Shown here piece after piece: positions 49,727 through 55,905 of a DNA stretch of 64,000 nt (its first letter is position 1; each line of letters opens with the position of its first letter). Both the position numbers and the translations under genes were made by a program. The stretch comes from Planctomycetota bacterium (GTDB taxonomy: Bacteria > Planctomycetota > UBA8742 > UBA2392), in contig QEVF01000009.1 of the NCBI GenBank assembly GCA_003576915.1, positions 17,638 through 81,637 on the forward strand. Direction: 5' to 3'. Under the pieces are notes generated by a model. That model saw only the letters and a program-made list of their open reading frames with translations. It did not search any database and was not told where the DNA came from.

Positions 49727-50526
49727 TGCGGATTCTGGTGACCAACGACGACGGTATGAACGCCAGCGGGCTGGTGACGCTGGAAAAGGCGGTGCAACGC
49801 CTGGGCGGCGAGGTCTATGTCGTCGCCCCGGAGCAGGAGCACAGCGCGCAAAGCCACGCCATTACCGTGCGCCAGCCCGTATTCGCGCGCACACTGCCCC
49901 TGACGCACGGCGAGAAGCAGCGCATCGCCATCAGCGGGACGCCCTGCGACTGTGTGCGCCTGGCCTGCATCAAGCTTCTTGAGCACAAGCCCGATCTCTG
50001 CGTTACCGGCATCAACCACGGCGCCAACCTGGGCTGGGACGTGTTCTTTTCAGGCACCGTTTCGGCCGCGGCCGAGGCGCACAGCTTCGGCATTCCAGCC
50101 ATTGCCTTTTCACTGGCCACCTGGAGCAAGCCGGACTGGACCAACCTCGACCTGCTCGTGGCGGACCTGCTGCGCTCGCTGCTGGCCGCGCGCCACACCC
50201 AGCGCAACTTTCTGTACAGCGTGAACATACCCCCCATCCCGCCGGCGAAGATGCAGGGCGCGAAGATCACCCGGCTCGAGCCCCTGGTCAAGGGCGACAA
50301 CTTTGAAGAGCGCGAAGCTCCCGACGGGCGGCGCTACTACTGGCCCACCTGGGACGAACGCAAGGCCGCGCGCGACAGGATTACCGATGAGCGCTATGAC
50401 AGCGCCGCCGTGCGCGCCGGCTACATCAGCATTACGCCGCTGCGCTATGACGTCAGCGCCATCGAGGATGCGGCGCTGACGCCGGTGTTCTCCGACTACA
50501 AGCCGGGCCGGGCCCTTGAAGCCTGA
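49726..50526 (+). CDS. surE: 5'/3'-nucleotidase SurE
   Basis: MRILVTNDDGMNASGL and GINHGANLG motifs. Confidence 0.9.
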   Translation: MRILVTNDDGMNASGLVTLEKAVQRLGGEVYVVAPEQEHSAQSHAITVRQPVFARTLPLTHGEKQRIAISGTPCDCVRLACIKLLEHKPDLCVTGINHGANLGWDVFFSGTVSAAAEAHSFGIPAIAFSLATWSKPDWTNLDLLVADLLRSLLAARHTQRNFLYSVNIPPIPPAKMQGAKITRLEPLVKGDNFEEREAPDGRRYYWPTWDERKAARDRITDERYDSAAVRAGYISITPLRYDVSAIEDAALTPVFSDYKPGRALEA

Positions 50527-50543
50527 GAAGCGTTCATGCGCCT

Positions 50544-50903
50544 TCAGGCCCGCCTGAACTTCTCGCAGGCGTAGGGCTGGTCTTTCAGCGCTTTGCACAG
50601 CGCGTCTTCGGTCAGCTCGCAACCCGCCTTCATGGTGATGGTCAGCGTTTCGTGTTTCTCGTCCAGGCTCACCTCGTCCACACCGTCCAGTGCGAGCACC
50701 AGCTTCCTGAGGGCGGCTGCGCCTTCGGCGTCCTTGACTCCGCTGACCGAAACTTCATATTTCGCTGCCTTCACGGGCAGGTTGCGCGGGCCTCAGCCCG
50801 CTCACAGAAAGTCGGGCGTTGCGCCCCCGGCGCCAAAGGGCGCCGCCGACAGCGCGCCGCAGGACAGTGCGGCCAGCAAAACCAGCGTGAGCATCCTGTG
50901 CAT
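50544..50903 (-). CDS. Exported protein with N-terminal UAGU motif (two in-frame TGA) followed by an HMA-like ferredoxin-fold domain; putative selenoprotein A
   Basis: GAGGAG lies 6 nt upstream of the ATG at 50903. Signal peptide MHRMLTLVLLAALSCGALSA. The TGAs at 50802-50804 and 50793-50795 are in frame with the 76-aa ORF at 50544-50774, reading ..DFL-U-AG-U-GPRNLPVKAAKYEVSVSGV.. The listed ORF starts only at an internal GTG. Confidence 0.6.
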
Positions 50904-50960
50904 GGCATTCTCCTCAGGCCCCGATTGGGACGCCGGCGCGGCCGTCGAGGTTCCGCCAAT

Positions 50961-51272
50961 TCAGGGACCGGCAGGCGTCAGGGGGCTCAACTGGCGCAGG
51001 GTTACCCCCTGTTCGAGGGCCAACCGCTCAAGGGCAGCGCGCAGGGCCTGCTCCGTGCCAAGCCAGGTGATGTGAAACTCGCCCTGGGGCTCTTCGTATA
51101 CGCTTTGGACGCCATCCAGGCGCGCGATCATCTGATCGAAACCGGGTCAGTCCTCGCCTCACTGCCCGTAATCGAGCCAGGCGAGATAGTGGTGGGGCGG
51201 GGGCGCCTGCGGTTTGGGCGGGGCCGCACAGGCGGCGAGCAGCAGCAAGGACGTGAGCCACATCAAGCGCAT
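50961..51272 (-). CDS. Lipoprotein with HMA-like domain carrying UGEDU at the metal-binding loop (two in-frame TGA); putative selenoprotein B
   Basis: The ATG at 51272 gives MRLMWLTSLLLLAAC (lipobox). The TGAs at 51159-51161 and 51147-51149 are in frame. My manual translation downstream is stop-free to the TGA at 50961: ..YLAWLDYGQ-U-GED-U-PGFDQMIARLDGVQSVYEEPQGEFHITWLGTEQALRAALERL.. I see no clear SD. Confidence 0.55.
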
Positions 51273-51283
51273 GTCATAGAATA

Positions 51284-51315
51284 GAAAACCGGGCAACTGG
51301 CGTCGCCCGGTTTTC
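51284..51315 (-). terminator. Intrinsic terminator-like hairpin downstream of selenoprotein C
   Basis: On the minus strand, GAAAACCGGGC-GACGCCAGTT-GCCCGGTTTTC is followed by TATTCT. Confidence 0.6.
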
Positions 51316-51333
51316 GTATTGCGGCGGAGGATG

Positions 51334-51753
51334 CTACTTGCCGGAGCCCTTGTTCCCGTCAGTTCCGTCCTTCTTTTCTTCCTTCTTTTCTTCCTTGGTC
51401 TCCTCGCCTTCCTTGGCGAAAGAGCGGACGCTGAACTTGCTGTCCTCGAAGGCCTTGACGACCGCATCCTTCTCGATCGTCTTGCCTTCCTTCATCGTGA
51501 CGGTGGCTTCCTGCTTCTTCTTGTCCCACGTTGCTTTTTCCACGCCTTCCAGGCTGGAGAGGGTCTTGACGACCGCAGGTCCTCACGTCGCTCACGTCGC
51601 GCCGTCGATGCCAACCTTGTAAACCGTGGGTGCTGCCTTGGCCGGCTGCTCGGCCTTCTTTTCTTCGCCCTTGCTCTCCTGGGCCTGGCAGGCCACGCCC
51701 GCCACACTGACCGAGAGCAGGAGCGCGGCAGCGACGAATCCCATCTGACGCAT
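51334..51753 (-). CDS. Exported HMA/MerP-like protein with GAT-U-AT-U-G at the GMTCxxC position (two in-frame TGA); putative selenoprotein C
   Basis: AGGAGG lies 6 nt upstream of the ATG at 51753. Signal peptide MRQMGFVAAALLLSVSVAGVAC. TGAs at 51592-51594 and 51583-51585. The readthrough product VYKVGIDGATUATUGPAVVKTLSSLEGVEKATWDKKKQEATVTMKEGKTIEKDAV aligns with the Cys paralog VVTIEGMTCIKCAKAVEKAIAAIDGVESVKVCDKSGKALVTMKEGKTLDKTAV. Confidence 0.7.
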
Positions 51754-51825
51754 GTGCATCCTCCTGTTAGAGAAATGGAAACAACCCTTCCATATGGAAC
51801 TACGGAGGGCAGCTTAGCATTCCGC

Positions 51826-51858
51826 AAAAAAAGAGGGAGCGGCGCAGGCCGCTCCCTC
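51826..51858 (-). terminator. Strong rho-independent terminator after the Cys-type HMA gene
   Basis: On the minus strand, GAGGGAGCGGC-CTGC-GCCGCTCCCTC (11-bp stem) is followed by TTTTTTT. Confidence 0.8.
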
Positions 51859-51877
51859 GGCATGCGGGCGCAGAAGA

Positions 51878-52360
51878 CTAGCCCTTGGACTTCTCTGCCG
51901 TCTTCGCTTCCTTGTTCTCGTCCTTCTTGGGTTCGGCCTTCACGACGGACTTGGTCTTGAACTCCGTCTCCTTGAGGGCCGTCTCGACGGCGGTCTTGTC
52001 AAGGGTCTTGCCTTCCTTCATGGTGACCAGCGCCTTGCCGGACTTGTCGCAGACCTTGACGGACTCAACACCGTCAATGGCGGCAATGGCCTTCTCCACG
52101 GCCTTGGCGCACTTGATGCAGGTCATGCCTTCAATCGTCACGACAAAGCTGTTGGCCTTGACCTCGCCGCAGCCGCCACAATCCTTGGCATCGCCCTTGT
52201 CACAGCAGCCCTTGCCTTCTTCTTCACAGCACTTCTCGCCGTCCTTCTTCTCGCTCTTCTTGTCGCCGCAGCTATCACAGCCCTTGCACTGGGCCATCAG
52301 CGGGGCGCCGGCGAAAGCCAGGCCGAGGAAGAGCATCAAAGCAGTCAGGAACTTCGTCAT
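51878..52360 (-). CDS. Exported Cys-rich HMA domain protein (MerP/CopZ-like, canonical GMTCxxC)
   Basis: The ATG at 52360 gives signal peptide MTKFLTALMLFLGLAFAGAPLMA. A Cys-rich linker follows (CKGCDSCG..CCEEEGKGCCDKGDAKDCGGCG), then VVTIEGMTCIKCAKAVEKAI. Confidence 0.85.
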   Translation of the reverse strand: MTKFLTALMLFLGLAFAGAPLMAQCKGCDSCGDKKSEKKDGEKCCEEEGKGCCDKGDAKDCGGCGEVKANSFVVTIEGMTCIKCAKAVEKAIAAIDGVESVKVCDKSGKALVTMKEGKTLDKTAVETALKETEFKTKSVVKAEPKKDENKEAKTAEKSKG

Positions 52361-52459
52361 GTCGTCTCCGTTCATTAGTGCGGGGCAAGGCCCCATCGTG
52401 GTTGTCGTAAGCGGCCCATTATAGACGAACGGGCCGGGTCCGTCCTTACATCAAAATGG

Positions 52460-52936
52460 TCATTTCACCTTGTGTCGCGCCTTGAGCGCCTTCCAGTCTC
52501 CCTGCAGGTCCTCCTTGAAGCTGAAGACCTCATAGCCGAAGTCCTTGTAGATGAAGTCTGTGACAGTCTTCTCGTCCAGCCGGATCTGGGGCTTGCACAG
52601 GACGAAAAGCGTGAATTCCTCGATCACGGTGAAGCTGTCCAGCAACCCATACTGGGTGGTGAGGGCGTCCACGACGCCCGTGGTTCAGCCGCCTCAGTCG
52701 ATGCCCTTGAGGCCGATGGCGTAGATCACCTCCCTGATTTCCGGCCTGGCTTCCGGTTCCGCCTTGGGTTCAACCTTCGGCTCGGCCTTGGGCTGGGGCC
52801 TCGCGCCGCAGCCGGAGTCAACGGAAGCAGGCTCGCCGCCGCCCTTGCGCAGATGCACGGGCTGGAAGTCTTCTTTGGTGAGCTGGCAGCCGCCCGTCAG
52901 GGCCAGCAGCAACAGGGCCAGGAGTCCGCGGTTCAT
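52460..52936 (-). CDS. Lipoprotein with HMA-like domain carrying UGGU at the metal-binding loop (two in-frame TGA); putative selenoprotein E
   Basis: GAGGAG lies 6 nt upstream of the ATG at 52936. Lipobox LALTGGC. The TGAs at 52694-52696 and 52685-52687 join the listed ORFs 52694-52936 and 52460-52672 in one frame: ..EVIYAIGLKGID-U-GG-U-TTGVVDALTTQYG.. Confidence 0.65.
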
Positions 52937-52946
52937 AGCCTTCTCC

Positions 52947-53834
52947 TCAAATCAGGTAGCTGAACATCAGCATGAATTCGCCTTCATGGTAGAACTGCTT
53001 GCCGAACAGATAGCGATAAACCGGCAGGTTCAGCCCGAACTTGCACTCGATGCGGTTGGTGATGTTCATCTGCATGCCAAGCGCCAGATGTACGAAATAG
53101 CCGCCGCTGTTGTCATCGCGGTCGCCGTGCATGCGTCCGCGGTGCTCAAAGCGGGCGTCGGCCTCCACCAGCAGAATCAGGTCAAAATCGCGGTAATCCG
53201 TAAGCTGGAACACGCGATAGGCGTAGGCCAGGTGGGCCTGGGCTTCGGGGCCCGCGCCGCTGCCGTCAATCTGGGTGCTGCCGCGCCCCGCCAGGTCAAA
53301 CCAGAGGTAGTGGCGTGTGGTGCTGGTGGAAGCTGAGAGGCCGAACGTGAACGTCCAGTTGTCGTCAAACTCGTCGCCCATGGGCTCGCCGTGGCGCCGC
53401 GTGGCCGTGGGCATGTCGATCGTGGCAAACCACGACGCCTTGGTGGAACCGCCCTCAAACACGTTGTTGAGGAAGCGGTAAGTGCCGGCCAGAGAGAACT
53501 TGCGGGCGCCGGAGTAGACCTCGCTCCCGTCCTTGCTGTGTTCGCGCATGTAGAAGTAGGGCGTCTTGATCCGCATGGCGAAGTCGCGCGAGAACCCGTA
53601 GGTGACGCCGGGCTCGATGGTGTGCATGAACATGCGGCGGTCGCGCCCGTTGGAATCGGGGTTGTCGCCGCTGAAATAGCGGAAGGCCCAGTCGAACTCC
53701 TGCTCGAGTTCAAGTTCGAGGCCCTTGTTCCAGATGGTTCTGGGTCCCAGTCCGAACATGGTTTCGTGGGCGCTCACGGCGCCCGCGCCCAGAACTCAGA
53801 CCAGTGCCAGCAAAGCCAGGTGCTTCAGCGTCAC
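52947..53834 (-). CDS. Putative outer-membrane beta-barrel protein with one in-frame TGA inside the signal peptide
   Basis: The GTG at 53834 is preceded by AAGGAG with a 6-nt spacer and overlaps the merR stop (GTGA). The N-terminus MTLKHLALLALV-[TGA 53796-53798]-VLGAGAVSA|HE is a signal peptide. The body has alternating beta-strand-like sequence and ends ..MLMFSYLI. Confidence 0.6.
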
Positions 53835-54274
53835 GCCGGACTCCTTTTCTTGCCCTTGGGGGCCCTGGTTGGACCGCCTTCTATGCCTTGGAGGATGCTG
53901 CAGCATTCGGTGCTCTTGTCGCCGCCGGGGCAGCGTTCAATGAGGTCAGCGAGGTGATCGCGCATCTCGGTCAGCAGCTCGATTTTGCGAGTAATCTCGA
54001 TGAGCTTGCGCGAGGCAAGCTCGCTGACGTCTCCGCAGGTGGCGAGGTCGGAGGTGCGCAGGAACAGCAGGTCCTGAATCTCTTTGAGCGTGAAGCCGAC
54101 ATCCTTGGCGCGCTGGATGAAGCGCAGGCGCGCGACGTCGTCGTCGCCGTAGAGGCGATGGCCGCCGGCGCTGCGCTCGGGTTTGGGCAACAGACCCTCG
54201 CGCTCATAAAAGCGCACGGTTTCGATGTTGATGCCCGTGGACTCGGCCAGCTTGCCTACCGTCATGGTGGTCAT
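53831..54274 (-). CDS. merR: MerR-family regulator with the mercury-type Cys triad
   Basis: The HTH is KLAESTGINIETVRFYEREGLL. Cys80, Cys115 and Cys124 have the same spacing (35 residues, then C-x8-C) as Cys82, Cys117 and Cys126 of Tn501 MerR as I recall it. Confidence 0.85.
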   Translation of the reverse strand: MTTMTVGKLAESTGINIETVRFYEREGLLPKPERSAGGHRLYGDDDVARLRFIQRAKDVGFTLKEIQDLLFLRTSDLATCGDVSELASRKLIEITRKIELLTEMRDHLADLIERCPGGDKSTECCSILQGIEGGPTRAPKGKKRSPA

Positions 54275-54291
54275 GTGGCACCTCGGGGAAC

Positions 54292-54322
54292 AAGTTACCT
54301 CCGTAGCTTACTACGGGTTCAA
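54292..54322 (-). promoter_or_regulatory. MerR-type promoter/operator: -35 TTGAAC, 19-bp spacer containing dyad CCGTAG-N4-CTACGG, -10 TAACTT
   Basis: The minus strand reads TTGAAC CCGTAGTAAGCTACGGAGG TAACTT. The spacer counts to 19 nt. The dyad resembles the Tn501 mer operator (TCCGTAC-N4-GTACGGA). It lies ~18 nt upstream of the merR ATG. Confidence 0.75.
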
Positions 54323-54363
54323 GGGAATTGGCAGGAATCAGAACGGCAGCAACTGCGCAGAGT

Positions 54364-54391
54364 CTGGAAGCTGGTGGTCAGGGCCGGACTT
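54364..54391. repeat. Direct repeat of the tRNA-Phe 3' end (copy distal to the tRNA)
   Basis: ctgGaagctggtggtcagggccggactt matches 54525-54552 at 27 of 28 positions, with 24 contiguous identities. Confidence 0.9.
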
Positions 54392-54494
54392 CGAGCAGCC
54401 GCTGCGCGGCTGCGAGACAGCGCAGCAGCCCGGCCCACAGGCCGGGCGTAAGCGTAGCGGCGGCGAGCGCAGCGAGACGAAAACCTCACGAAAT

Positions 54495-54518
54495 GACCCC
54501 GGCAGGTCGCCCGGGGTC
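54495..54518 (-). terminator. Hairpin terminator downstream of tRNA-Phe
   Basis: GACCCCGG-N8-CCGGGGTC is followed on the minus strand by ATTTCGTGAGGTTTTCG. Confidence 0.55.
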
Positions 54519-54524
54519 ACTGTG

Positions 54525-54552
54525 CTGAAAGCTGGTGGTCAGGGCCGGACTT
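54525..54552. repeat. Direct repeat copy overlapping the 3' end of tRNA-Phe
   Basis: See 54364-54391. Confidence 0.9.
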
Positions 54553-54608
54553 GAACCGGCGACCCATGCATTTTCAGTGCATTGCTCTACCAACTGAGCT
54601 ACCTGACC
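54533..54608 (-). tRNA. tRNA-Phe (anticodon GAA), CCA encoded
   Basis: The minus strand reads GGTCAGG TA GCTC AGTTGGTA GAGC A ATGCA CTGAAAA TGCAT GGGTC GCCGG TTCAAGT CCGGC CCTGACC A CCA. This gives a complete cloverleaf. Confidence 0.9.
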
Positions 54609-54717
54609 CTGTGCCGCGTCTTGCCGCGGCAGGCGCGAAAAGGTAGCAGCAATCGGGACTACGTCAACCCGCTGGCGGCGTTTAGTATGCCGGCGGCACA
54701 TCGCACGCGGAGGCACC

Positions 54718-55905
54718 GTGAAAATCTCGGACATCGTCATCACCCACGCCCGGCGCACCCCCATTGGCAAGTACTCCGGGGCGCTGGCACCCCTGAACGC
54801 CGTCCAGCTTGGCACCCACGCCGTCAGCGCTGTGCTCAGGCAAAGCGCCATCGACCCCGGCCTCGTGGGCCAGGTAATCATGGGCCACGGGCGGCAGGCG
54901 GGCAACGGCCCCAACACGGCGCGCCAGGTGGCCATTCGCGCCGGTCTGCCTGAAACCTGCATCGCGTACACCATCAACATGGCCTGCGCTTCGGGCCTCA
55001 AGGCCATTGTCAACGCCGCCCTCGCCATCACCAGCGGCGAATGCGAAGCGGCCATTGCCGGCGGCATGGAAAGCATGACCAACGTGCCCTTCATGCTCAC
55101 CTCAGACGCCCGCAACGGCTGGCGCATGGGGCACCACGAAGTCACCGACCTCATGTATCGCGACGGATTCCTCTGCCCCCTGGCCGACCAGCTCATGGGC
55201 CGCACGGCCGAGACTTTGCGCATCCAGTACAACATCAGCCGCGCCGAGCAGGACGAATTCGCCGCAGCCTCCCACAACAAGGCCGAAGCAGCCCTCAAGG
55301 CAGGCCGCTTCAAGGATGAAATCGCGCCCGTGACCCTGCGCGACAAGAAGGGCGAAACCCTGCTGGACCGCGACGAAGGCGTACGCGAGGGCTGTACCCC
55401 CGACCAGATGGCCAAGCTCAAGCCCGTGTTCATGGACGACGGCACCGTCCACCCCGGCAACGCCTCGGGCATCACAGACGGCGGCAGCGCACTCCTGCTC
55501 ATGAGCGCGGAAAAGGCCTCAAAGCTCGGCTTCAAGCCCCTGGCGCGGCTGGAAGGTTATGCCTTTGCCGGCGTGGACCCCAAAGTCATGGGGCTGGGGC
55601 CCGTGCCGGCCACCGCGGACATCAACCGCAAGCTGGGACTCAGCATCGACCAGTATGACCTCGTTGAACTCAATGAAGCTTTTGCGGCCCAGGTGCTGGC
55701 CTGCGACCGCGAGATGAAGATCCCCCGCGACCGGCTCAACGTCAATGGCGGCGCCATTGCCCTGGGTCACCCCATCGGCAACACGGGGGCCCGCATCGTG
55801 ACCACTCTGGCCCATGAACTGCGCCGGCGCGGCGGCAGGCGCGGCCTGGCCACGCTCTGCGTCAGCGGCGGCCTGGGCGCCTCCCTGGCCATCGCTGCGG
55901 TGTGA
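54718..55905 (+). CDS. Acetyl-CoA C-acetyltransferase (thiolase II)
   Basis: GTG start. NMACASGLKAI (Cys), NGGAIALGHPIGNTGARI, CVSGGLGASLAI. Confidence 0.9.
   Translation: MKISDIVITHARRTPIGKYSGALAPLNAVQLGTHAVSAVLRQSAIDPGLVGQVIMGHGRQAGNGPNTARQVAIRAGLPETCIAYTINMACASGLKAIVNAALAITSGECEAAIAGGMESMTNVPFMLTSDARNGWRMGHHEVTDLMYRDGFLCPLADQLMGRTAETLRIQYNISRAEQDEFAAASHNKAEAALKAGRFKDEIAPVTLRDKKGETLLDRDEGVREGCTPDQMAKLKPVFMDDGTVHPGNASGITDGGSALLLMSAEKASKLGFKPLARLEGYAFAGVDPKVMGLGPVPATADINRKLGLSIDQYDLVELNEAFAAQVLACDREMKIPRDRLNVNGGAIALGHPIGNTGARIVTTLAHELRRRGGRRGLATLCVSGGLGASLAIAAV

What the first reader, a model, noticed from the sequence alone, without database searches (positions are those of the whole stretch)
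54292..54322. Tn501-like mer operator with a 19-bp-spacer promoter directly upstream of a co-directional merR
The minus strand reads TTGAAC-CCGTAGTAAGCTACGGAGG-TAACTT. The over-long 19-bp spacer carrying a perfect 6+4+6 dyad (CCGTAG N4 CTACGG) is the defining architecture of MerR-family activated promoters. The half-site is nearly the Tn501 one (CCGTAC). The regulator has the Hg-type Cys spacing (C80, C115-x8-C124). Unlike classical Gram-negative mer operons, merR here is the first gene of the unit, as in Gram-positive mer operons. It is translationally coupled (GTGA) to the barrel gene.
Basis: partly seen in the sequence, partly recalled or inferred. Interest (0 to 1): 0.7.

Follow-up and report, generated by a model that had tools for sequence, protein, structure and literature searches.

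The report
MerR-type metal switch driving selenoprotein operon
The site is a real, evolutionarily conserved MerR-type metal-switch promoter, but it controls an unusual Planctomycete gene set (an outer-membrane channel plus metal-binding lipoproteins built with selenocysteine) rather than a classical mercury-resistance operon.

Summary
The sequence is exactly as described: TTGAAC, a 19-bp spacer with the perfect dyad CCGTAG-N4-CTACGG, then TAACTT (54322..54292, minus strand), 17 nt before the ATG of a 147-aa MerR-family gene. The frame TTGAAY-N19-TANNNT occurs once in 64 kb (0.10 expected). Every related Planctomycetota locus examined has a TTGAA-type -35 hexamer, a 19-bp spacer and a CCGTA/CTGTA-type dyad, while the flanks diverge.

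The regulator belongs to the heavy-metal branch of the MerR family, and its Cys80 suggests a divalent-metal sensor. It reaches no subfamily cutoff (MerR 132 vs 150.85 bits; ZntR 127 vs 143). The Cys conserved across orthologues is C125, not C124. No merA, merT or merP lies in the window. "mer operator" and Hg specificity are therefore unproven.

Downstream lie:
- a COG4313/FapF-like outer-membrane barrel;
- a lipoprotein with an HMA-like domain whose metal loop reads U-G-G/Q-U (two in-frame TGA codons, present in all 15 loci);
- a Cys-rich HMA protein;
- three more genes with paired in-frame TGAs, each pair followed by a hairpin like a selenocysteine-insertion (SECIS) element.

The barrel's signal peptide also carries a conserved in-frame TGA, which I cannot explain.

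This is a new variant of a known kind.

The parts
54317..54322 (-). -35 hexamer TTGAAC
   Evidence: TTGAA[C/T] is kept in nearly all related loci; L011 has TAGAAC and L012 has TTGAAA.
54298..54316 (-). 19-bp spacer holding the operator dyad CCGTAG-TAAG-CTACGG (54316..54301) plus AGG
   Evidence: In the alignment of five clade-I upstream regions the invariant columns cluster in TTGAA, CCGTAGTAA and CTAC, while mean column identity is only 62%.
54292..54297 (-). -10 hexamer TAACTT (3 of 6 matches to TATAAT)
   Evidence: A TAnnnT hexamer sits 19 bp after the -35 in nearly all related loci; L004/L025 has GATAAG. The distance from the -10 to the ATG is 17-18 nt throughout clade I.
54279..54284 (-). 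Shine-Dalgarno-like GAGGTG, 4 nt before the merR ATG. The expected 5' leader is only about 10 nt (inferred).
   Evidence: GGAGGT, GAGGT and GGAA sit at the same place in relatives.
53831..54274 (-). MerR-family heavy-metal-type regulator, 147 aa, with Cys at 80, 115, 124 and 125
   Evidence: Pfam MerR_1, MerR-DNA-bind and MerR. NCBIfam places MerR, ZntR, CueR and CadR all below their cutoffs. Best PDB matches: Bacillus MerR 4ua1 (3.8e-28), Tn501 MerR 5crl (4e-24), CadR 6jgv (1.5e-23). C80, C115 and C125 are invariant in 9 orthologues.
52947..53834 (-). Outer-membrane beta-barrel gene. It starts at GTG 53834, preceded by AAGGAG. Its signal peptide, VTLKHLALLALV-TGA-VLGAGAVSA|HE, carries an in-frame TGA at 53798..53796.
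   Evidence: The AF2 model has 14 strands, pLDDT 77 and pTM 0.73. Foldseek matches FapF 5o65 (TM 0.67) and the COG4313 channel 4rl8 (TM 0.71-0.73). Remote sequence relatives are Pfam PF13557. The protein ends in SYLI, and relatives end in YLF.
53768..53784 (-). Hairpin GGGCGC-CGUGA-GCGCCC, starting 12 nt after the signal-peptide TGA (candidate SECIS element)
   Evidence: RNAfold. Hairpins with a CGUG(C/A)U loop follow the equivalent TGA in most clade-II loci.
52460..52936 (-). Family A: a lipoprotein with a Pro/Glu-rich linker and an HMA-like domain whose metal loop is D-U-G-G-U. The in-frame TGAs are at 52696..52694 and 52687..52685. Gene callers split it into 80-aa and 70-aa ORFs.
   Evidence: Sec-Sec in all 15 distinct loci, never Cys. 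The family profile matches CopZ 6ff2 at E = 4.9e-6, and the U..U aligns with the CxxC of the window's own HMA protein.
52645..52679 (-). Two hairpins after the UGGU codons, at 52679..52663 and 52657..52645 (candidate SECIS elements)
   Evidence: 95% of cells are paired and 3 pairs change on both sides. One of these is G-C to A-U, made by Val to Ile together with a synonymous GAC to GAT. The covariation score exceeds all 500 shuffles.
51878..52396 (-). Secreted HMA protein with a classical GMTCIKC loop and a Cys-rich N-terminal stretch (several CxxC and CC). The likely start is the ATG at 52360.
   Evidence: Pfam HMA at 6.4e-9; CopZ and MerP models match at similar, sub-cutoff scores. The equivalent gene in L001 is called at 156 aa.
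51833..51858 (-). Terminator-like hairpin followed by TTTTTTT. This is the probable end of the MerR-driven transcript.
   Evidence: A hairpin is kept at the same place in L001.
51334..51759 (-). Family B: a secreted or lipoprotein HMA domain with the loop T-U-A-T-U. The TGAs are at 51594..51592 and 51585..51583. It is linked to the unit by conserved synteny only.
   Evidence: With U replaced by C it matches Pfam HMA at 2e-7, NF041115 UxxU_metal_bind at 33.5 bits (cutoff 95) and MerP at 33.4 bits.
50961..51272 (-). Family C: a lipoprotein (LLAAC) with Q-U-G-E-D-U followed by PGFDQMIARLDGV. The TGAs are at 51161..51159 and 51149..51147.
   Evidence: U-GE(D/S)-U is kept in L001, L004, L005 and L025.
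50544..50903 (-). Family D: a secreted or lipoprotein with L-U-A-G-U ahead of an HMA-like domain that lacks CxxC. The TGAs are at 50804..50802 and 50795..50793. A hairpin lies at 50780..50765.
   Evidence: In the hairpin 100% of cells are paired, 2 pairs carry compensatory changes and the loop CGUGAA is invariant.

Best explanation
The site is a MerR-family 'activation by distortion' promoter-operator. The adjacent 147-aa regulator binds as a dimer to the CCGTAG-N4-CTACGG dyad inside the over-long 19-bp spacer. Without its metal it keeps the promoter shut. When a thiophilic metal ion binds, bridging Cys80 of one subunit and Cys115 and Cys124/125 of the other, the regulator underwinds the spacer so that RNA polymerase can use the -35 and -10 hexamers. 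The transcript starts about 10 nt before the merR ATG. It runs through merR, a COG4313/FapF-like outer-membrane barrel, a lipoprotein with a diselenol (U-x-x-U) HMA-like domain and a Cys-rich HMA protein, and ends at the terminator at 51858..51833. Three further paired-TGA genes follow, kept in the same order in relatives. The products all work outside the cytoplasm, which suggests that they bind and remove a soft metal in the cell envelope rather than reduce it or pump it from the cytoplasm. Shown here: the sequence anatomy, its conservation, the family placement of the regulator, the fold class of the barrel, and the conserved in-frame TGAs with hairpins. Inferred: binding, activation, the identity of the metal (a divalent soft metal: Hg(II), Cd(II), Pb(II) or Zn(II); Hg is plausible but unproven), the extent of the transcript, and the decoding of TGA as selenocysteine.
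For: The anatomy is exact and rare by chance. Phylogenetic footprint: six distinct clade-I sequences keep TTGAA[C/T], CCGTAGTAA[G/A]CTAC[G/A]G and a 19-bp spacer, while the flanks are unalignable. Eleven clade-II sequences have a TTGAA-type hexamer, 19 bp with a CCGTA/CTGTA-type dyad, then TAnnnT, placed between merR and the barrel gene instead. The regulator has MerR HTH and dimerisation domains, and its best matches are metal-sensing MerR proteins. Cys80 aligns with MerR C82 and ZntR C79, where CueR has Ser. In the literature that position separates sensors of +2 ions from sensors of +1 ions (my knowledge: Changela et al. 2003). All twelve species genomes that hold the barrel have this regulator directly upstream of it. 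Two further regulator homologues at 69-73% identity sit in the same unit. A palindrome inside a 19-20 bp spacer is the published signal of heavy-metal MerR regulons (PMC1526738, PMC3431237). The envelope location of the products rests on signal peptides or lipoboxes on every downstream product. The HMA assignments come, and the barrel fold. Remote relatives of the barrel that keep the same mature N-terminus (AHEPxFxxGP) lie in metal loci. One has merR, a secreted HMA protein and a P-type ATPase. Another has a MerF that passes its curated cutoff (89 vs 50 bits) and a MerT-like protein.
Against: There is no experimental evidence of any kind, and all the organisms are uncultured MAGs. The -10 hexamer is weak (3 of 6), the sigma-70 scan did not call the site, and promoter rules in Planctomycetota are poorly known. 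The inferred leader is very short. No subfamily model reaches its cutoff, so the metal is open. The length of the metal-binding loop varies among orthologues, from x7 to x9. Terminator-like hairpins lie after the HMA gene and after family B, and no MerR-type site precedes families B-D, so their co-regulation is not shown. In clade II the dyad just before the merR ATG has no convincing -10, so it may act only in repression. I could not check the genomes for the selenocysteine machinery.
Confidence: 0.75

Rival explanations
1. One reading: this is a true mercury-resistance (mer) operator, the regulator is an Hg(II)-specific MerR, and the downstream genes form a new kind of Hg defence.
For: The dyad has the same 4-bp centre, the same register and the same 19-bp spacer as the proteobacterial MerR signal TCCGTAC-4-GTACGGA, and it matches 5 of the 6 half-site bases that can be compared. 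MerR is the top NCBIfam model (132.2 bits). The two best PDB matches are the Bacillus and Tn501 MerR proteins, with ERCP-x7-EC aligned residue for residue to Bacillus MerR. C80, C115 and C124 reproduce the MerR 82/117/126 spacing. Selenolates bind Hg(II) extremely tightly (my knowledge). A remote relative of the barrel lies beside a MerF that passes its curated cutoff.
Against: The MerR score is below the equivalog cutoff, and the ZntR model is as close to its own cutoff. The invariant third Cys is C125, not C124, and loop length varies among orthologues. PbrR has the same Cys spacing (PMC3431237). There is no merA, merT, merP or merB. The HMA proteins score the same against CopZ and MerP models. 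The innermost half-site base differs from all MerR consensus sequences. Another remote relative of the module pairs a mer-like dyad with a regulator that has Ser at the Cys80 position, next to a P-type ATPase.
Confidence: 0.25
2. The regulator senses a monovalent coinage metal (Cu(I), Ag(I) or Au(I)), as CueR and GolS do, and the unit handles copper in the periplasm.
For: The HMA proteins match CopZ models best. The mature barrel begins with His-Glu-Thr-Met, residues that suit Cu binding (inference). MerR-type control of a periplasmic copper-binding protein is known from Salmonella CueR and cueP (my knowledge). The remote module L027 has a regulator with Ser at the Cys80 position (CueR 135 bits) and a P-type ATPase.
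Against: Cys80 is invariant in all nine orthologues, where CueR has Ser. The CueR model scores 24 bits lower than the MerR model. The dyad is unlike the CueR signal ACCTTCC-N-GGAAGGT (PMC1526738).
Confidence: 0.1
3. The site is not an activatable promoter. It is either a chance palindrome, or an operator used only for repression or autoregulation, or the terminator of the upstream tRNA-Phe.
For: The -10 is weak and there was no hit in the sigma-70 scan. The window holds 38 perfect 6+4+6 dyads. In clade II, dyads next to the merR ATG lack a clear -10.
Against: The full frame occurs once against 0.10 expected. It is conserved with exact 19-bp spacing across about 17 distinct sequences, including loci where it lies between merR and the barrel gene, far from any tRNA. 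The stem has only 6 bp and no T-run follows it.
Confidence: 0.04

Closest known systems
Tn501/Tn21 MerR with the PmerT operator-promoter (proteobacterial mer)
   Same: A 19-bp spacer. A dyad with a 4-bp centre in the same register, starting at the first spacer base. CCGTA is shared in each half-site. The -10 is weak. The regulator has Cys at the positions equivalent to 82, 117 and 126.
   Different: The innermost half-site base is swapped on both arms (CCGTAG/CTACGG against CCGTAC/GTACGG). merR is co-directional and comes first, rather than divergent. There are no merTPA genes. The regulator scores below the MerR cutoff. The controlled genes are an outer-membrane channel and selenoprotein HMA lipoproteins.
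Firmicute mer operons (Bacillus RC607 type; MerR structure 4ua1)
   Same: merR is the first gene of the operon it controls. This MerR is the best match among solved structures (3.8e-28), with the ERCP...EC loop aligned.
   Different: The Firmicute signal is a 9-4-9 palindrome, ACCGTGTAC-4-GTACAGGGT, in a 20-bp spacer (PMC1526738). Those operons encode MerA and transporters.
PbrR, CadR and ZntR (divalent-metal MerR sensors)
   Same: Cys at the start of the dimerisation helix. PbrR has Cys at 79, 114 and 123, the same spacing as the window's C80, C115 and C124. The promoters have 19-20 bp spacers. HMM and PDB scores are comparable.
   Different: All their models score below cutoff. The ZntR signal is a 22-bp palindrome in a 20-bp spacer. 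These regulators normally control P-type ATPases, and none is present here.
UxxU metal-binding selenoprotein family NF041115, and the MerP and CopZ HMA proteins
   Same: An HMA fold with the metal loop CxxC replaced by UxxU. They are predicted to bind soft metals.
   Different: Family B scores 33.5 bits against a cutoff of 95. Families A and C match no curated model. These proteins are lipoproteins or secreted proteins, encoded several to a locus under a MerR-type switch. Family A has no Cys form among 15 loci.
COG4313 / Pfam PF13557 outer-membrane channels (4rl8) and FapF (5o65)
   Same: The barrel fold (TM 0.67-0.73). Remote sequence relatives fall in PF13557.
   Different: The window protein itself matches no Pfam model. 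It forms a small subfamily (9 representatives below 1e-30), has a conserved mature N-terminus AHE(T/P)xFGxGP, is linked to metal loci, and in many members has an in-frame TGA in the signal peptide.

Membership tests
Heavy-metal MerR-type activated promoter (palindrome inside a 19-20 bp spacer) | -35 and -10 hexamers separated by 19-20 bp | tested here: met
   TTGAAC, 19 bp, TAACTT. The spacing is 19 bp in all related loci.
Heavy-metal MerR-type activated promoter (palindrome inside a 19-20 bp spacer) | Dyad-symmetric operator inside the spacer | tested here: met
   A perfect 6+4+6 dyad, conserved in orthologues.
Heavy-metal MerR-type activated promoter (palindrome inside a 19-20 bp spacer) | A cognate MerR-family regulator gene next to the site | tested here: met
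   The merR ATG lies 17 nt after the -10. The regulator is always linked to the unit.
Heavy-metal MerR-type activated promoter (palindrome inside a 19-20 bp spacer) | Metal-dependent activation through DNA underwinding | not testable with these tools
   This needs EMSA or footprinting, a reporter assay and spacer-deletion mutants.
MerR, Hg(II)-responsive (TIGR02051 equivalog) | HMM score at or above the curated cutoff | tested here: not met
   132.2 bits against a cutoff of 150.85. NF010315 gives 97 against 261.
MerR, Hg(II)-responsive (TIGR02051 equivalog) | Three Hg-binding Cys at the positions equivalent to 82, 117 and 126 | tested here: inconclusive
   C80, C115 and C124 fit in the window. 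Across orthologues the invariant Cys is C125, and the loop varies from x7 to x9. PbrR has the same spacing (PMC3431237).
MerR, Hg(II)-responsive (TIGR02051 equivalog) | Controls the mer structural genes (merT/P/C/F, merA) | tested here: not met
   None is present in the unit, and none among the 30 largest other ORFs of the window or in the related loci.
MerR, Hg(II)-responsive (TIGR02051 equivalog) | Operator TCCGTAC-4-GTACGGA (19 bp) or ACCGTGTAC-4-GTACAGGGT (20 bp) | tested here: inconclusive
   The geometry is the same and CCGTA is shared. The innermost base and the outer T/A differ.
ZntR (NF007069 / TIGR02043) | Score at or above the cutoff, and a 22-bp palindrome in a 20-bp spacer | tested here: not met
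   126.6 against 143 and 120.7 against 167.95. The spacer is 19 bp and the dyad is different (PMC1526738).
CueR (TIGR02044) | Ser at the start of the dimerisation helix, C112-x7-C120, and an ACCTTCC-type operator | tested here: not met
   Cys80 is invariant. The score is 108.6 against 147.4. The operator is unlike the CueR signal.
UxxU metal-binding selenoprotein (NF041115) | HMM score at or above the cutoff | tested here: not met
   Family B scores 33.5 bits against 95. Families A and C match nothing, and family D has only weak sub-cutoff matches to other HMA models.
Bacterial selenoprotein gene | An in-frame TGA conserved across species, with conserved protein sequence on both sides | tested here: met
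   Family A in 15 of 15 loci. Families B-D in the clade-I loci that carry them.
Bacterial selenoprotein gene | A SECIS-like hairpin shortly after the TGA | tested here: met
   Family A: 95% of cells paired, 3 pairs changed on both sides, covariation score above 500 of 500 shuffles. Family D: 100% paired, 2 compensatory pairs. No Rfam family matched.
Bacterial selenoprotein gene | Cys in place of Sec at the same position in homologues | tested here: inconclusive
   The U..U aligns with the CxxC of HMA proteins. No close Cys form of family A was found.
Bacterial selenoprotein gene | selA, selB, selD and tRNA-Sec present in the genome | not testable with these tools
   None is in the 64-kb window. 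The rest of the MAG cannot be read here. Some Planctomycetes have the full set (PMC4807772).
COG4313 / PF13557 outer-membrane channel | The barrel fold, and membership of the Pfam family | tested here: inconclusive
   The fold matches 4rl8 at TM 0.71-0.73. The window protein has no Pfam hit even at E = 10. Eight of ten remote relatives match PF13557 at E < 0.01, seven of them above Pfam's gathering score.

The most novel reading that the evidence does not exclude
This is a selenium-dependent heavy-metal defence of the cell envelope. A MerR-type switch turns on an outer-membrane channel and a set of lipoproteins whose HMA metal loops carry two selenocysteines (UxxU). These trap Hg(II) or other soft metals as selenolate complexes, with no reductase and no pump. 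The conserved UGA inside the channel's signal peptide is decoded as selenocysteine, so the channel is made only when the cell can supply selenocysteine.
Probability: 0.3. Interest if true: 0.85.

Novelty: new variant of a known kind. Interest (0 to 1): 0.62.

Why it matters
The promoter adds a clean, conserved MerR-type switch from Planctomycetota, a phylum whose promoters and metal regulation are barely studied. It has a natural operator variant (CCGTAG/CTACGG) that could be tested as a biosensor part. The genes it controls matter more. Annotation pipelines cut them into 'hypothetical' mini-ORFs of 33-80 aa, because each carries two in-frame TGA codons. Read through, they form a set of envelope HMA proteins with diselenol metal sites beside a metal-associated outer-membrane channel. 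If confirmed, this would be a way of resisting metals by selenoprotein sequestration, and a rare case of several two-Sec proteins in one locus. The conserved TGA in a signal peptide would be a new place for selenocysteine, or for programmed read-through, and can be tested directly.

Tried and rejected
1. A genomic island at tRNA-Phe. The 28-nt repeat of the tRNA 3' end (54525-54552 and 54364-54391) looked like an att scar. It is part of a 161-nt tandem repeat whose copy number varies (3, 2 and 1 copies in L001, L002 and L003). The order thiolase, tRNA-Phe, unit, surE is conserved. The extra 435-aa ORF in L003 has no integrase domain. Rejected.

2. A second MerR site before family B (CCGTAGTTCCATATGG, 51805..51790). 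It has 2 mismatches, which is chance level, and it is not conserved beyond L001. Rejected.

3. The in-frame TGAs are sequencing errors or pseudogene lesions. Rejected, because they recur at the same codons in up to 15 species-level loci, with synonymous changes around them.

4. Re-initiation after the signal-peptide TGA. No consistent start codon follows it. Unlikely.

5. An Rfam scan of 50000-55000 found only the tRNA and two weak sub-threshold matches, and no SECIS family.

6. A search for homologues of family A with U replaced by C in the 5.8-billion-protein set found nothing.

I used profile searches instead.

8. Looking for mer genes, metal pumps or selenocysteine genes among the 30 largest other ORFs of the window found none.
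Full report
**1. The observation**

The minus strand from 54322 to 54292 reads TTGAAC-CCGTAGTAAGCTACGGAGG-TAACTT.
- The spacer is 19 bp. The dyad CCGTAG-TAAG-CTACGG is perfect and begins at the first spacer base.
- The exact dyad occurs once in the window. Matches with 2 mismatches are at chance level (4 found, 1.77 expected).
- The frame TTGAAY-N19-TANNNT occurs once on both strands of the 64 kb, against 0.10 expected. The window holds 38 perfect 6+4+6 dyads, so the combination is informative but a dyad alone is not.
- The -10 hexamer matches TATAAT at 3 of 6 positions. The generic sigma-70 scan, which looks for 16-18 bp spacers, therefore did not report the site. Tn501's TAAGGT also matches at 3 of 6 (PMC3431237).
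- GAGGTG and the ATG of a 147-aa ORF (54274..53831) follow 17 nt after the -10.

**2. Conservation**

The barrel protein encoded downstream has only 15 relatives among 5.8 billion proteins, all from Planctomycetes. It occurs in 12 of 185,579 species genomes, all Planctomycetota MAGs. In every locus a MerR-family gene lies directly upstream. Two further regulator homologues, at 73% and 69% identity, lie in the same unit.

Clade I comprises the window, L001-7, L013-15, L025 and L026.
- The upstream regions are otherwise unalignable, yet they keep TTGAA[C/T]-CCGTAGTAA[G/A]CTAC[G/A]G, a 19-bp spacer, a TAnnnT-like -10, and a constant 17-18 nt from the -10 to the ATG.

Clade II comprises L008-12 and L016-24, where the mature barrel begins AHNTLFG.
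- The same architecture lies between merR and the barrel gene. Examples are TTGAAC-CTGTAGCCTGCTACAGGTG-TATTCT and TAGAAC-GTGTAGGGTACTACACGTT-TAAGGT.
- Most of these loci also have a second CCGTA-N6-TACGG dyad next to the merR ATG.

This footprint is the main evidence that the site functions.

**3. The regulator**

- Pfam finds the MerR HTH and MerR-DNA-bind domains.
- NCBIfam scores are MerR 132.2 (cutoff 150.85), ZntR 126.6 (143), CueR 108.6 (147.4) and CadR/PbrR 105.6 (151.45). No model reaches its cutoff. Across nine orthologues the ZntR and MerR models do about equally well.
- The best matches to solved structures are Bacillus MerR 4ua1 (3.8e-28), Tn501 MerR 5crl (4e-24), CadR 6jgv (1.5e-23), a PbrR-like protein 5gpe (4e-21) and CueR (about 1e-20).
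- The window protein has Cys at 80, 115, 124 and 125. C80, C115 and C125 are invariant among orthologues. C124 is present only in close relatives, and clade II has C-x7-C preceded by His.
- Cys80 aligns with MerR C82 and ZntR C79, where CueR has Ser. By established knowledge this points to a divalent-ion sensor.
- PbrR has Cys at 79, 114 and 123 (PMC3431237), so the MerR-like spacing does not identify Hg.

**4. What the promoter drives**

The merR stop overlaps a GTG at 53834, which is preceded by AAGGAG. Overlapping or adjacent stop and start codons are kept throughout clade I.

The barrel:
- It opens with a signal peptide. The mature protein starts at His (AVSA|HETMFGLGP) and ends in SYLI or YLF.
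- The model has 14 strands with pLDDT 77. It resembles FapF and the COG4313 channel 4rl8 at TM 0.67-0.73.
- Remote sequence relatives fall in Pfam PF13557.

The small ORFs downstream are artefacts of paired in-frame TGA codons. Read through, they give:
- family A, a lipoprotein with a linker and an HMA-like domain whose loop is GID-U-GG-U-TTGV;
- a Cys-rich HMA protein with a normal GMTCIKC loop;
- family B (DGAT-U-AT-U-GPAV);
- family C (YGQ-U-GED-U-PGFDQ);
- family D (FL-U-AG-U).

Evidence that these TGAs encode selenocysteine:
- Family A has both TGAs in all 15 distinct loci and never has Cys.
- Its profile matches CopZ at 4.9e-6, and the U..U lies on the CxxC of an HMA domain.
- With U replaced by C, family B matches Pfam HMA and, below cutoff, the known UxxU selenoprotein model NF041115. 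That model is listed as a predicted two-Sec metal-binding family in PMC13188914.
- Hairpins follow the TGAs. In family A 95% of cells are paired, three pairs change on both sides, and the stem bases at synonymous sites are invariant. In family D the loop CGUGAA is invariant and two pairs are compensatory.

Limits on the regulatory claim:
- Terminator-like hairpins after the HMA gene and after family B, and the lack of MerR-type sites before families B-D, mean that only merR, the barrel, family A and the Cys-rich HMA gene can be assigned to this promoter with confidence.
- No merA, merT, merP, P-type ATPase, RND pump or selenocysteine gene was found in the unit or among the 30 largest other ORFs of the window.

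**5. An unexplained feature**

The barrel's signal peptide has an in-frame TGA at 53798..53796.
- L001-3 and L013 have the same TGA, with synonymous changes nearby.
- Eight of nine clade-II species have one at MRxLLR-U-LLLLPAV.
- Without read-through the barrel has no signal peptide, and no consistent restart codon follows the TGA.
- Hairpins follow it, with CGUGA-type loops in the window and in most clade-II loci.
- A full-text search found no paper describing selenocysteine in a signal peptide.

Whether this is selenocysteine, other read-through, or a checkpoint on selenium supply remains open.

**6. Wider context**

Remote relatives of the barrel keep the mature N-terminus AHEPxFxxGP and lie in metal loci.
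- L027 has merR, a thioredoxin-like gene, the barrel, a secreted HMA protein with CPFC, an ArsR-family gene and a P-type ATPase. Its promoter, TTGACT-CTGTACTTTGGTACAGGGT(T)-TATACT, resembles the Firmicute mer signal, but its regulator has Ser at the Cys80 position (PMC1526738).
- L029 has two barrels together with a MerF that passes its curated cutoff (89 against 50 bits), a MerT-like protein, an HMA protein and a fragment of a disulfide reductase.

'MerR, COG4313-like barrel and envelope HMA protein' is therefore a wider metal module. The Planctomycete version is its selenoprotein form. The link to Hg is suggestive only.

**7. Verdict**

The most likely mechanism is metal-triggered underwinding of the 19-bp spacer by the adjacent regulator, which switches on an envelope system that binds metal. 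I rate this a new variant of a known kind, with moderate to high interest because of what the promoter controls.

Noticed in passing
window 50544-52936 (minus strand): Four genes are split by gene callers into mini-ORFs because each has two in-frame TGA codons (UxxU or UxxxU), in three of them at the HMA metal-loop position. Together with the barrel's TGA that makes nine in-frame TGAs in about 3.3 kb.
   Followed up: yes
window 53796-53798; also L001-3, L013, L008, L010, L012, L016-18, L020-24: There is a conserved in-frame TGA inside the signal peptide of the outer-membrane barrel, at two different positions in the two clades. A hairpin follows it, with a CGUGA-type loop in the window and most clade-II loci. 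Without read-through there is no signal peptide.
   Followed up: partly
window 54364-54391 and 54525-54552; L001 3393, 3554, 3715: The 3' end of tRNA-Phe (54533-54608, minus strand) belongs to a 161-nt tandem repeat with varying copy number: 2 copies here, 3 in L001, 2 in L002 and 1 in L003. It lies between the tRNA and the merR promoter.
   Followed up: partly
window 52150-52290 (N-terminal part of the HMA protein 51878-52396): A Cys-rich, charged stretch (QCKGCDSCGDKK...KCCEEEGKGCCDKGDAKDCGGCG) precedes the HMA domain. It may be an extra metal-binding sponge.
   Followed up: no
window 51788-51799: A perfect 12-bp palindrome, TTCCATATGGAA, lies between the terminator after the HMA gene and the start of family B. 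It is kept in L001 but not in more distant loci.
   Followed up: partly
L016-L023, L010, L012 (just 5' of merR): Most clade-II loci carry a second CCGTA-N6-TACGG dyad 10-20 nt before the merR ATG, with no clear -10. It may be an autorepression site or the promoter of a leaderless transcript.
   Followed up: partly
L027 250-4100; L029 400-8954: Distant PF13557 barrels with the same mature N-terminus (AHEPxFxxGP) lie in other metal loci. One is with merR, a secreted CxxC HMA protein and a P-type ATPase. The other is with MerF, a MerT-like protein, an HMA protein and a disulfide reductase. The 53-aa HMA ORF in L029 starts after the expected metal loop, so it may also be cut short.
   Followed up: partly
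L008 4560-5459, also L009, L010 and L012: In these clade-II loci a conserved 297-299 aa ORF lies directly upstream of merR on the same strand. The L008 copy has no Pfam match.
   Followed up: no
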